Positions 21,800-24,700 of a stretch of 64,000 nucleotides of DNA are shown piece by piece. The stretch covers positions 17,398,782-17,462,781 of the forward strand of contig NC_085842.1 in the NCBI RefSeq assembly GCF_035594765.1, in the 5' to 3' direction. This DNA comes from Anolis carolinensis (taxonomy: Eukaryota). A program made the position numbers. How positions within the stretch are numbered: position 1 is the first letter of the stretch; each line of letters begins with the position of its first letter.

Positions 21800-24700
21800 T
21801 TATTATTATTATTATTATTATTATATTAATACTAAGTGGGAATAACCTTATCTCCCTGTTTGAATGGATTAAATTTGCCTAATTAATTTTCAGCCACAAT
21901 ATTCCAAGCTCACAACTAACCAGATTCTTTCCTTTAGACCTGTGTAAACAGACTAAGAGCAAAATCATTCTGTTAATATCATAACATACAGAAGAGATTG
22001 AGAATTCTAAACAAGCCTTTTCTTCAGGTTAAACTAGATTTTCACCTACATATTTTAAGAAACACCATATTTTTTTTTACATTTAATACACACACAAACA
22101 CATCACTTATTGGATTTATTATTATTTATATGTTATAGATAGGACATGAAACATTTGCAGAAACCATTATGCATGAACAGATAGAAAACAGTTTATCAGT
22201 GATTCTTTCTTAGTTATTTCATACAAGAAAATTCAGTCCCACATACATATAACTACATGAAACACAGGGCTGTTAGTCATTAATTAAACCCATTCCCACA
22301 CTTCAAATCAAACATCTCAATTAAATGTATTTTAAACCCTGAATATACATGACAGGAAATATTTGCAGTAACTAATGTTCATGAATGGGTAAAAGAAAAC
22401 CTGAAATATCTTTCGTTTAGCTCTCAAAATATTATCACTTTTGCTTAATGAGATATTTCATCAAAGAAAATTGGTCAGATTATTACTTCCCCCAAAAGCC
22501 ACAGCTTTTTAAATCAGTGTTACCATAACTAAGATGCAAGCCACCTTTGATTTAAAACAAAGAAACTTCTCTTTACCCCATTTCTTTCGTATGGGTTGAC
22601 AATTAAAAACAAGGCTTGTCTTTCAACTGCAGATCTTTGCACACTCCAGTTTTTCTCCACTGCGAGTTGCTTGATGTTAAACAAGGTATGATTTTCGACT
22701 GAAGCTCTTTCCACACTCTGAGCATTTAAATGGCTTCTCTCCTGTGTGAGTTGCCTAATGACTAATAAGTCTTCAATTTTGGTTAAAGCTCTTTTCATAC
22801 TGAAAGCATTTTAAAAGTTTCTCTCCTGTGTGAGTTGCCTGATGACTAATAAGGACGTCCTTTCGACTGAAGCTCTTTTGACACACTGAGCATTTAAATG
22901 GCTTCTCTCCTGTGTGAGTTGCCTGATGACGAATAAGGACTTGCTTGTGACTGAAGCTCTTTTGACACACTGAGCATTTAAATGGCTTCTCTCCTGTATG
23001 AGTGGCCTGATGATTATGAAGTGTTCCCTTCTGACTGAAGCTCTTTTCACACTGCAAGCATTTAAATGGCTTTTCTCCTGTGTGAATTGCCTGATGTTTA
23101 ATAAGTGTTCCCTTTTGACTGAAGCTCTTTTCACACTGCAGACATTCAAATGGCTTCTCTCCTTTGTGAGTTGCCTGATGATGGATAAGGTCTTGCTTGT
23201 GCCTAAAGCACTTTTCACACTGCAAGCATTTAAATGGCTTCTCTCCTGAGTGAGTTGCCTGATGAGAAATAAAGGTTCCCTTTCGACTGAAGAACTTTCC
23301 ACACTGCAAGCAATGAAATGGCTTTAATCCCGTGTGAGTTGCCTGATGACTAATAAGGCTTCCCTTTTGGCTAAAGCTCTTTTCACACTGCACACATTTA
23401 AATGGCTTCTCTCCTGTGTGAGTTGCCTGATGACTAATAAGGACGTGTTTTTGACTGAAGCTCTTTTCACACAGCAAGCATTTAAATGGCTTCACTCCTG
23501 TGTGAGTTGCTTGATGACGAATAAGGACGTGCTTGCGACTGAAGCCCTTTTTACACTGCAAGCATTTAAATGGTTTCTGTTCTGTGTGAGTTGCCTGATG
23601 ACTAATAAGGTTACTCTTTTGAGTGAAACACTTTTCACACACTAAGCATTTAAATGGCTTCACTCCTGTGTGAGTTGCCTGATGACTAATAAAGGTGCTT
23701 TTGTGACTGAAGCTCTTCTCACACTGCAAGCAATGAAATGGCTTCACTCCTGTGTGAGTTTCCTGATGACGAATAAGGATGTACTTGTGACTAAAGCACT
23801 TTTCACACTGCAAGCATTTAAATGGCTTTACTCCTGTGTGAGTTGCCTGATGAGCAATAAGGTTTCCCTTTTGGCAAAAGCTCTTTTCACACTGTACACA
23901 TTTAAATGGCTTCTCTCCTGTGTGAGTTGCCTGATGACGAATAAGGCTTCTCTTTTGACTGAAGCTCTTTTCACACTGCAAGCATTTAAATGGCTTCTCT
24001 CCTGTGTGAGTTGCCTGATGACTAATAAGGATGTGTTTGCGACTAAAGCTCTTTTCACACTGCAAGCATTTATATGGCTTTACTCCTGTGTGAGTTGCCT
24101 GATGAGCAATAAGGTTTCCCTTTTGACAAAAGCTCTTTTCACACTGTACGCATTTAAATGGCTTCTCTCCTGTGTGAGTTGCCAGATGACTAATAAGGTT
24201 TCTTTTATGACTAAACCTCTTTCCATAGTGCGAGCATTTAAATAGCTTCTCTCCTTTGTGAATTGCCCTGTGATGAACATAGCTTATCTTCTGAGAGAAA
24301 CTTTTTCCACATTCCAAAGATTTAAATGGTTCATCCCTTCTGTGAGTTTCTTGAGAAAAGGTGAGCGCTTCCTTACTATTGAAATCCATTCCATTTTCCA
24401 AATATTTAAACGGTGTCTCCTCTATTGGCATGGCTTGAGAACAAGGGAAGGGTGAACATGTGTTGAAAAGAAAAGGTTATATTAAAGTTAAAATGTATAC
24501 CAGTAACAAAAGTGCATTTAGTCGCAACAGCCCTTTCCCACAGCCCTATCCAACACTAGATGCTAAAAGAAAAATATCTGTTTTGTTATTGCTCTAAATA
24601 TTACACCAGGATATAAGTCTCAAAGTAAATTATAATGCAACCAGGGAAGTGGAAAATAGAGTTGTTTTCTTTAGCCCTGGTTTCTCTGGCATTCCCTGTA

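What the first reader, a model, noticed from the sequence alone, without database searches (positions are those of the whole stretch)
23086..23107. Recognition helix of a single finger swapped between otherwise identical duplicates B and D
Seen: the two 552-aa ZnF ORFs differ at only 4 residues. Three are in intact finger 13 (B: QKGTLIKHQAIH; D at 60352-60373: QKGNLIAHQATH) and come from 6 substitutions in 22 nt. The D tract matches fingers 1 and 4 of the same array (QKGNLIAHQATH) except at one synonymous base. Helix positions +3 and +6, both base-contacting, are changed. Inference: a short intra-array gene conversion reprogrammed DNA specificity right after duplication (or between alleles), a snapshot of KZFP target switching.
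Basis: partly seen in the sequence, partly recalled or inferred. Interest (0 to 1): 0.7.

Follow-up and report, generated by a model that had tools for sequence, protein, structure and literature searches.

The report
One-finger helix swap between duplicate genes
Two almost identical neighbouring copies of a zinc-finger regulator gene differ mainly by a 22-base patch that rewrites the DNA-reading helix of one finger; the patch is real and far from random, but that it was copied from another finger of the same gene is plausible, not shown.

Summary
The two 552-aa minus-strand ORFs (B 22773-24431, D 60039-61697) differ at 7 of 1659 bases and 4 residues. Six bases lie in 23086-23107 / 60352-60373 and change helix positions +3, +6 and +10 of finger 13. 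No chance model gives such a cluster: 0 of 20000 shuffles reach it.

- **Donor:** fingers 1 and 4 match the D tract at 21 of 22 bases. The tract is mostly framework shared by the whole family, so only 6 sites are informative. 104 of 729 random outcomes would match some finger as well, and a Sawyer-type run test gives P=0.36.
- **Polarity:** undetermined.
- **Timing:** "right after duplication" does not fit. The duplicated blocks show three strata, about 2%, 0.37% and 0% over 3627 bases. The tract sits at the edge of the identical block.
- **Gene type:** SCAN-KRAB-C2H2, probably squamate and not human.

My best reading is a short templated patch (micro gene conversion) in a pair that is being homogenised. 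It is a known kind of event and a neat instance of it, still unproven without reads and relatives.

The parts
23086..23107 (-). 22-nt tract in finger 13 of array B (helix reads T at +3, K at +6, I at +10)
   Evidence: No other match with up to 4 mismatches in the window.
60352..60373 (-). 22-nt tract in finger 13 of array D (N at +3, A at +6, T at +10)
   Evidence: One mismatch to fingers 1 and 4 of both arrays.
22773..24431 (-). ZnF exon ORF of gene B: 552 aa, 16 intact C2H2 fingers plus degenerate end fingers
   Evidence: Pfam zf-H2C2_2 E 6e-125 and zf-C2H2 E 5.4e-75.
60039..61697 (-). ZnF exon ORF of gene D: 552 aa, same architecture
   Evidence: Pfam zf-H2C2_2 E 8.3e-126.
24090..24152 (-). 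Finger 1 core of B, a candidate donor-type helix (its D counterpart is 61356-61418)
23838..23900 (-). Finger 4 core of B, a candidate donor-type helix (its D counterpart is 61104-61166). It differs from the finger 1 unit at 2 of 84 nt.
14246..26734 (.). Duplicated block, B side (partner 51483-64000, which runs into the window end)
   Evidence: 98.9% identity over 12534 columns. 76 substitutions and 8 indel events.
51483..64000 (.). Duplicated block, D side
23108..26734 (.). Perfectly identical sub-block (partner 60374-64000). Its left edge abuts the tract.
   Evidence: 0 substitutions and 0 indels in 3627 sites. P(0) is 1.8e-6 or 2.7e-4 at the neighbouring rates.
27471..27591 (-). KRAB-box exon upstream of array B. 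The bounds are my reading of an AG acceptor and a GT donor.
   Evidence: Open segment 27451-27639 scores 66.7 bits on Pfam KRAB (cut-off 20.4). Splice dinucleotides were read.
28908..29582 (-). SCAN-domain exon ORF upstream of the KRAB exon of B. A second SCAN ORF lies at 31044-31535.
   Evidence: Pfam SCAN E 1.1e-35 and 1.2e-34.
40561..41820 (-). Array C, an older paralogue (about 78-84% identical to B/D). It is the only in-window outgroup and is not collinear enough to polarise.

Best explanation
B and D are the zinc-finger exons of two tandem copies (period 37266 nt) of a SCAN-KRAB-C2H2 gene in a multi-gene cluster. The copies are kept similar by long-tract exchange. Inside that background, one short templated repair patch replaced the codons for helix positions +3, +6 and +10 of finger 13 in one copy. 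The patch is a micro gene conversion or a template switch during repair, at least 22 nt and at most about 45 nt long. The most economical version is that D received a helix of the type carried by fingers 1 and 4. The source could be its own array, the sister array, or an unseen family member carrying the exact tract. That version also needs one extra base change, or an exact donor outside the window. The two proteins would then read the same long site except at the triplet facing finger 13.

Shown: the difference, its clustering, the domain make-up, and the divergence strata. Inferred: templating, donor, direction, and any effect on binding.
For: - **Clustering:** 6 substitutions fall in 22 nt against 0 in the next 3627 nt and 1 in the preceding 274 nt. 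0 of 20000 shuffles reach this. Poisson times windows gives 1.3e-9.
- **Spectrum:** 4 of the 6 changes are transversions and none is at a CpG. In the rest of the block, 51 of 70 changes are transitions. This is unlike the local point-mutation spectrum.
- **Codon changes:** two codons are changed at 2 and 3 bases at once, which is awkward for stepwise mutation.
- **Candidate donor:** fingers 1/4 carry the D state at 5 of 6 sites as one uninterrupted stretch, giving the mosaic pattern P..P Q x Q Q Q Q P..P. The B tract has no look-alike in the window.
- **Finger 14:** it shares the B-type Thr codon, which suggests B is the older state. A single finger 14 to finger 13 tract is excluded, because the differing codon between them was not transferred.
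- **Other patchy exchange in these arrays:** the units of fingers 1 and 4 differ at 2 of 84 nt, while their neighbours differ at 7 and 10. Array C holds a 252-nt internal repeat whose copies differ by runs of 4 and 2 adjacent bases.
- **Precedent:** short GENECONV tracts among poly-ZF paralogues are reported in print (PMC2604467, passages read).
Against: - The donor is not exact. At one site B, D and fingers 1/4 carry three different bases. No other Asn(+3) codon in the window has the D spelling.
- The tract is mostly family-wide framework. Many finger pairs are 0-1 apart in these 22 nt while 7-17 apart elsewhere.
- 104 of 729 random six-site outcomes would match some finger at 5 or more of 6 sites.
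- The run test gives P 0.36 and 0.37, or 0.12 and 0.22 with a mismatch allowed, and no pair of 136 survives correction.
- The triplet P-values mostly restate the clustering.
- There is no outgroup for direction. At several sites the D states simply equal the family norm.
- No reads, no second assembly and no relatives could be consulted.
Confidence: 0.45

Rival explanations
1. An island that escaped homogenisation. The helix codons of finger 13 diverged earlier, under diversifying selection on contact residues. The copies were then up to about 2% or more apart. Later long-tract B/D conversion erased the neighbouring differences. The dense heterology, or selection against converted copies, stopped the last tract at the helix.
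For: Three divergence strata: 2.0% (46 of 2253), 0.37% (24 of 6571) and 0 of 3627. The pattern also holds at non-CpG sites: 1.3%, 0.22% and 0%. The tract is the very last difference before the identical block. That has about a 1 in 25 chance if it were unrelated to the other 24 events of its stratum. All 4 residue differences are non-synonymous and none is synonymous. In PRDM9 arrays, contact codons are reported to escape homogenisation (PMC3890296, passages read). That conversion tracts tend to end at heterology is recalled, not checked.
Against: Even at 2%, 6 changes in 22 nt somewhere in the ORF has P about 0.013, so strong selection or templating is still needed. Codons changed at 2 and 3 bases need several selected steps. 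The left side of the tract is also nearly clean, with 1 difference in 274 nt, so two tract ends would have to flank the same 22 nt.
Confidence: 0.2
2. Assembly, polishing or haplotype-mosaic artefact. The two versions would be alleles of one or both copies, or a consensus error in a repetitive array, and not a fixed difference between paralogues.
For: The array is an 84-nt tandem repeat of about 82% internal identity. A 3627-nt stretch of perfect identity runs into the window end. No reads were available.
Against: The two blocks differ by 70 other substitutions and 8 indel events, including microsatellite length (14.3 versus 20.3 copies of a trinucleotide). They are therefore separate sequences, not a copy-paste. 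A mis-mapped read from fingers 1/4 would carry their spelling of the Asn codon and their 6 framework differences. D13 has neither. There is no N or gap between the copies.
Confidence: 0.15
3. A non-templated clustered mutation (one error-prone repair event), or a run of independent point mutations fixed by selection, with the likeness to fingers 1/4 due to convergence on a favoured helix.
For: The donor match is not significant. One base fits no finger in the window. Other small clusters exist in the block alignment, and 363 of 20000 shuffles give 4 or more in 22 nt.
Against: All six hits fall in just three codons and leave the five codons between them untouched. Five of six land on the states of one existing finger. 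The Ala codon has the same spelling as in fingers 1/4.
Confidence: 0.08

Closest known systems
Short gene-conversion tracts among lineage-specific poly-zinc-finger paralogues (Emerson & Thomas 2009, PMC2604467; passages read)
   Same: Tandem C2H2 arrays in young paralogues. Short tracts. Change concentrated at contact positions.
   Different: Those tracts were called by GENECONV between genes in register. Here the proposed donor is another finger out of register, the tract is only 22-45 nt, and my Sawyer-type test does not reach significance.
Concerted evolution of the PRDM9 zinc-finger minisatellite, with contact codons escaping homogenisation (PMC3890296; passages read)
   Same: 84-nt finger units. 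Framework kept alike while positions -1, +3 and +6 vary. Unequal exchange and conversion within the array.
   Different: No PR/SET domain was seen. The gene carries SCAN and KRAB exons. The units are about 82% alike, not near-identical. The comparison here is between two loci, not alleles.
'Drift and shift' of ZNF-coding sequence between neighbouring mouse KZFP paralogues (PMC5363842; abstract and passages read)
   Same: Clustered tandem paralogues whose differences concentrate in the finger-coding exon.
   Different: 'Shift' there means insertion of new finger-coding segments. Here finger number is unchanged and only part of one helix differs.
Lizard SCAN-KRAB-ZNF expansion (Liu et al. 2014, PMC3971581; passages and Table 1 read)
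   Same: SCAN plus KRAB plus poly-ZnF exon order, with several such genes in tandem. The KRAB box lacks the central Leu of the MLE cluster, as that paper says of the lizard consensus (window segment).
   Different: The species of the window is unknown. No orthology could be tested.

Membership tests
KRAB zinc-finger protein gene (KZFP) | KRAB box encoded upstream on the same strand | tested here: met
   B: segment 27451-27639(-) scores 66.7 bits on Pfam KRAB against a cut-off of 20.4. Paralogous KRAB exons lie in 428-640 and 44933-45145. For D the expected place is beyond base 64000, so it is untestable.
KRAB zinc-finger protein gene (KZFP) | Tandem C2H2 fingers with conserved linkers | tested here: met
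   16 intact fingers per array. Pfam zf-H2C2_2 and zf-C2H2 hits. Gap-free alignment to ZNF568, PRDM9, Aart and Zif268-variant chains.
KRAB zinc-finger protein gene (KZFP) | Exons joined in one transcript; KRAB able to recruit KAP1/TRIM28 | not testable with these tools
   Exons were searched one by one. The joined model was left out. There are no expression data. The KRAB box lacks the central Leu of the MLE cluster (compare).
SCAN-ZNF / SCAN-KRAB-ZNF | SCAN domain exon upstream of KRAB and fingers | tested here: met
   Pfam SCAN E 1.1e-35 (28908-29582) and 1.2e-34 (31044-31535) upstream of B. Further SCAN hits at 49075-49644 and 2073-2582.
Gene conversion (templated patch) | Differences clustered beyond chance between otherwise near-identical copies | tested here: met
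   0 of 20000 shuffles. 1.3e-9.
Gene conversion (templated patch) | A donor carrying the tract exactly | tested here: not met
   The best donors, fingers 1/4, match 21 of 22. There is no exact copy of either version elsewhere in the window. The rest of the genome could not be searched.
Gene conversion (templated patch) | Donor-recipient fragment longer than expected (Sawyer/GENECONV-type test) | tested here: not met
   D13 versus finger 1 gives P=0.36 (0.12 with one mismatch). D13 versus finger 4 gives 0.37 (0.22). 17 units, 48 polymorphic sites, 136 pairs, 5000 permutations, my own implementation. Random-outcome match: 104 of 729.
Gene conversion (templated patch) | Direction fixed by an outgroup | tested here: inconclusive
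   The positional counterpart in array C (unit at 40918) carries the family-norm bases, which fit D at three of the six sites (unit positions 52, 62 and 73) and B at none. The arrays are not reliably collinear. Finger 14 shares the B-type Thr codon.

The most novel reading that the evidence does not exclude
The helix patch and the edge of the 3.6-kb identical block are linked. One possibility is that a single repair event both homogenised the copies and slipped out of register for a few dozen bases onto another finger. The other is that the dense mismatch created by the patch now acts as a barrier that stops homogenising tracts. In either case, one specificity-changing micro-patch lets a finger escape concerted evolution. 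That would be a caught-in-the-act first step of paralogue divergence in a reptile-type SCAN-KRAB-ZNF cluster.
Probability: 0.2. Interest if true: 0.55.

Novelty: new member of a known kind. Interest (0 to 1): 0.3.

Why it matters
If the patch is a true fixed difference, it is an unusually clean natural example. The DNA-reading helix of one finger in a 16-finger array changes in one step, while everything else in a 12-kb duplicate stays the same. That isolates the effect of a single finger on target choice. It would also show that concerted evolution and diversification can act side by side in one exon. It does not open a new class of mechanism, because short conversions in zinc-finger arrays are already described.

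Tried and rejected
1. **Pfam on whole-frame translations of the SCAN-to-ZnF intron.** I listed open segments instead and found the KRAB exons.
It was not significant for D13 versus fingers 1/4.
3. **Inverted or non-finger template for either tract.** There is no match with up to 4 mismatches on the other strand or outside the arrays.
4. **Array C as outgroup.** It is too rearranged to polarise, with a 252-nt internal repeat.
5. **CpG hypermutability as the cause of the 2% stratum.** Rejected, because the strata persist at non-CpG sites.
6. **Rfam at gathering thresholds.** 0 matches.
7. **Pfam on 10 further open segments.** No family.
8. **Literature.** Searches returned no paper, at the level of listings, describing a single helix replaced between near-identical KZFP duplicates. 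That is not proof that none exists.
9. **Not used.** The bacterial and archaeal genome collection and the phage, plasmid and E. coli collections cannot hold relatives of this locus. Structure prediction would not bear on the question.

Full report
**What is at the coordinates**

On the minus strand the window holds two 552-aa open reading frames, B (22773-24431) and D (60039-61697).
- They differ at 7 of 1659 bases. One is at 22812/60078. The other six are at 23086, 23097-23099, 23106 and 23107, and in D at 60352, 60363-60365, 60372 and 60373.
- The residue differences are 442 T/N, 445 K/A, 449 I/T and 540 L/F.
- A spacing scan finds 16 intact C2H2 fingers in each array. The 13th is 23082-23144 in B and 60348-60410 in D.
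- The seven residues before the first His count as -1 to +6. That register is anchored by the gap-free alignment of fingers 12-14 to solved ZNF568, PRDM9, Aart and Zif268-variant chains. On that numbering the changes are at +3, +6 and +10.
- That -1, +2, +3 and +6 are the base-contacting positions is the established Zif268-type model, which I recall rather than tested here.
- The window contains no N.

**Is it more than chance**

The two ORFs lie in a duplicated block, 14246-26734 against 51483-64000, which runs into the window end. It is 98.9% identical, with 76 substitutions and 8 indel events.
- None of 20000 uniform shuffles of the 76 substitutions over 12473 aligned sites puts 6 in a 22-nt window. 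363 of 20000 put 4 or more.
- Poisson probability times the number of windows is 1.3e-9 at the local rate. It is 5.6e-5 at the block-wide rate. It is 0.013 even at the rate of the most diverged stratum, applied to the ORF.
- Four of the six changes are transversions and none is at a CpG. In the rest of the block, 51 of 70 changes are transitions.

The cluster is real and is not ordinary point mutation.

**The proposed donor**

The D tract differs at one base, the third base of the Asn codon, from the same 22 nt of fingers 1 and 4 in both arrays. The B tract has no other match with up to 4 mismatches on either strand. Its weight is small, for these reasons.
- These 22 nt are mostly framework shared across the family. 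Many finger pairs are 0-1 apart here while 7-17 apart in the other 62 nt of the unit. The D tract itself has 3 matches at 3 mismatches and 26 at 4.
- Only the six differing sites carry information. Fingers 1/4 have the D base at five. At the sixth, B, D and fingers 1/4 all differ.
- If the six derived bases were drawn at random, 104 of 729 outcomes would match some finger of the window at 5 or more sites.
- I ran my own permutation version of Sawyer's run test on 17 units, 48 polymorphic sites, 136 pairs and 5000 permutations. It gives P=0.36 (finger 1) and 0.37 (finger 4). With one mismatch allowed it gives 0.12 and 0.22, uncorrected. No pair survives correction.
- The three-sequence mosaic pattern is tidy (P..P Q x Q Q Q Q P..P, P 1.5e-2 to 2e-6 depending on flank). 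It mostly restates the clustering.
- If fingers 1/4 were the template, the tract is at least 22 nt. From the nearest mismatches on either side in the unit sequences, it is at most about 45 nt (60341-60385).

**Direction**

There is no usable outgroup.
- Array C (40561-41820) is 78-84% identical and rearranged by a 252-nt internal repeat.
- Its positional counterpart carries family-norm bases. Those agree with D at three of the six sites and with B at none, and so do most other fingers.
- In favour of B being older: the B version is idiosyncratic, and its Thr codon has the same spelling as the neighbouring finger 14, which matches the B state at 4 of 6 sites.
- A single finger 14 to finger 13 patch is excluded, because the differing codon between the two shared stretches was not transferred.

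I rate D-derived as more likely than B-derived, but not by much.

**Context that changes the story**

Divergence between the two blocks is layered:

| Stratum (B coordinates) | Substitutions / sites | Overall rate | Non-CpG rate |
|---|---|---|---|
| 14246-16499 | 46 / 2253 | 2.0% | 1.3% |
| 16500-23085 | 24 / 6571 | 0.37% | 0.22% |
| 23108-26734 | 0 / 3627 | 0% | 0% |

- P(0) for the last stratum is 1.8e-6 or 2.7e-4 at the neighbouring rates.
- Further left, the flanks of the larger repeat unit (12-3734 against 44516-50581) are only 93.5-96.5% identical.
- The pair is therefore not a fresh duplicate. It has been re-homogenised in stages.
- The tract is the last difference before the identical block. 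That has roughly a 1 in 25 chance if it were unrelated to the other 24 events of its stratum.
- This hints at a link. Either one repair event made both, or the dense mismatch stopped a homogenising tract. That heterology ends conversion tracts is recalled, not tested.

**What the genes are**

Upstream of B on the same strand lie three domain exons:
- a KRAB-box exon, open segment 27451-27639, 66.7 bits against a cut-off of 20.4. My reading of the AG and GT sites gives about 27471-27591;
- two SCAN-domain ORFs, 28908-29582 and 31044-31535, with E 1e-35 and 1e-34.

Paralogous KRAB and SCAN exons precede array C (44933-45145, 49075-49644). Another set sits at the left end of the window (428-640, 2073-2582). 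The genes are thus SCAN-KRAB-C2H2.

The exons were searched one by one. The joined model was left out, so a continuous reading frame across exons is untested. D's KRAB and SCAN exons would fall beyond base 64000.

**Origin of the window**

I do not take it for human.
- The KRAB box lacks the central Leu of the MLE cluster (segment printed). PMC3971581 reports this for the lizard consensus.
- The same paper counts 240 SCAN-KRAB models in lizard against 28 in human (passages and Table 1 read).
- The RT fragments look CR1-like to me. That is recall, with no tool result.

No search for more of this contig was made in any collection.

**Virus-like content, described only**

Pfam finds non-LTR retroelement pieces.
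- Two reverse-transcriptase pieces lie inside insertions at about 45574-47060 and 48010-49085 (RVT_1 E 2.7e-35 and 1.8e-15).
  - They share 562 nt at 98.75%.
  - Each is a truncated piece. The first lacks everything upstream of the RT. The second holds only the first part of the RT (profile positions 2-118 of 205).
- An endonuclease-type piece lies at 15274-16008 (Exo_endo_phos E 3.2e-11), with its duplicate in the D block.
  - Relative to the B-side copy, the D-side copy carries one additional in-frame stop and one length difference.
- An open stretch at 50536-51399 has no Pfam match.
- I scanned 21 of the 109 open segments of 100 codons or more. I saw no gag, protease, RNase H, integrase or envelope domain, and no LTR pair. 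The rest of the window was not scanned.
- According to the passage read, the SCAN domain itself descends from a Gypsy-type capsid.

**How it most likely works**

Each finger's helix contacts about three bases, so a change at +3 and +6 of finger 13 should alter two of the roughly 48 bases the array could face. By the recognition code as I recall it, the B helix should favour a triplet beginning with G. The D helix, like fingers 1 and 4, should favour an A-rich triplet. This is inference.

Long arrays often use only some fingers, so the effect may be a fine adjustment or nil. "Reprogramming" overstates it. D would carry the same helix three times, at fingers 1, 4 and 13.

**Comparison with what is known**

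- Short conversion tracts among poly-ZF paralogues were found with GENECONV in many species sets (PMC2604467, passages).
- PRDM9 arrays show homogenised frameworks with contact codons escaping (PMC3890296, passages).
- Mouse KZFP neighbours show "drift and shift" in the finger exon (PMC5363842, abstract and passages).
- The present case is a further, very clean instance of this kind in a SCAN-KRAB gene.
- My three searches on gene conversion in zinc-finger genes listed no paper on a single helix replaced between near-identical duplicates. I checked listings only.

**What stayed unchecked**

The open genome collection holds only bacteria and archaea.
- Out-of-window donors, orthologues, population variation and reads could therefore not be examined.
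- Supplementary tables of the cited papers were closed.

**Verdict**

My probabilities are:

| Explanation | Probability |
|---|---|
| Templated short patch in a pair undergoing concerted evolution (best reading) | 0.45 |
| Selected island that escaped homogenisation | 0.20 |
| Assembly or allelic artefact | 0.15 |
| Non-templated cluster or stepwise selected mutations | 0.08 |

Novelty: a new member of a known kind. Interest: 0.3.

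Noticed in passing
window 14246-26734 versus 51483-64000: Divergence between the duplicated blocks is layered: about 2%, 0.37% and 0% over 3627 nt. The pattern persists at non-CpG sites. This indicates repeated homogenisation rather than one recent duplication.
   Followed up: yes
window 40750-41253 (array C, minus strand): There is a 252-nt (three-finger) internal tandem repeat whose copies differ at 10 of 252 nt. One difference is a run of 4 adjacent bases that swaps the two residues between the zinc-binding cysteines, between the two variants seen across the family. 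The two spellings look related by two compensating 2-nt shifts in a TG run (my reading).
   Followed up: partly
window 23838-23900 and 24090-24152 (and 61104-61166, 61356-61418): The units of fingers 1 and 4 differ at 2 of 84 nt, while the following unit pairs (2 versus 5, 3 versus 6) differ at 7 and 10. This suggests an earlier finger-to-finger homogenisation or a three-finger block duplication.
   Followed up: partly
window 45574-47060 and 48010-49085 (+): Two truncated LINE-type reverse-transcriptase pieces share 562 nt at 98.75%. They are inserted in the SCAN-KRAB intron region of gene C and are absent from the paralogous unit at the left end of the window.
   Followed up: partly
window 15274-16008 (+) and its duplicate in 52510-53406: A LINE-type endonuclease fragment lies inside the most diverged stratum of the duplicated block. 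The D-side copy is more interrupted than the B-side copy.
   Followed up: partly
window 5745-6056 (-): A short degenerate finger array (A, 3.7 units of 84 nt) with an in-frame stop in one finger. It is probably a pseudogene remnant, lying in a roughly 10-kb stretch present only in the left repeat unit.
   Followed up: no
window 28908-29582 and 31044-31535 (-): Two SCAN-domain ORFs in tandem lie upstream of gene B, in a local duplication that is about 85% identical. Which one, if either, is spliced to the KRAB exon is unknown.
   Followed up: no
window 9076-9868 and 17137-17923 (also 54380-55151): GC-rich stretches (GC about 0.53) carry long overlapping ORFs on both strands and are about 93% identical to each other. 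The ORFs look like composition artefacts, and the repeat family is unidentified.
   Followed up: no
window 22812 / 60078: This is the seventh ORF difference (L/F at residue 540), in the degenerate last finger. The D state (Phe) is the family norm at that linker position, so B looks derived here.
   Followed up: partly
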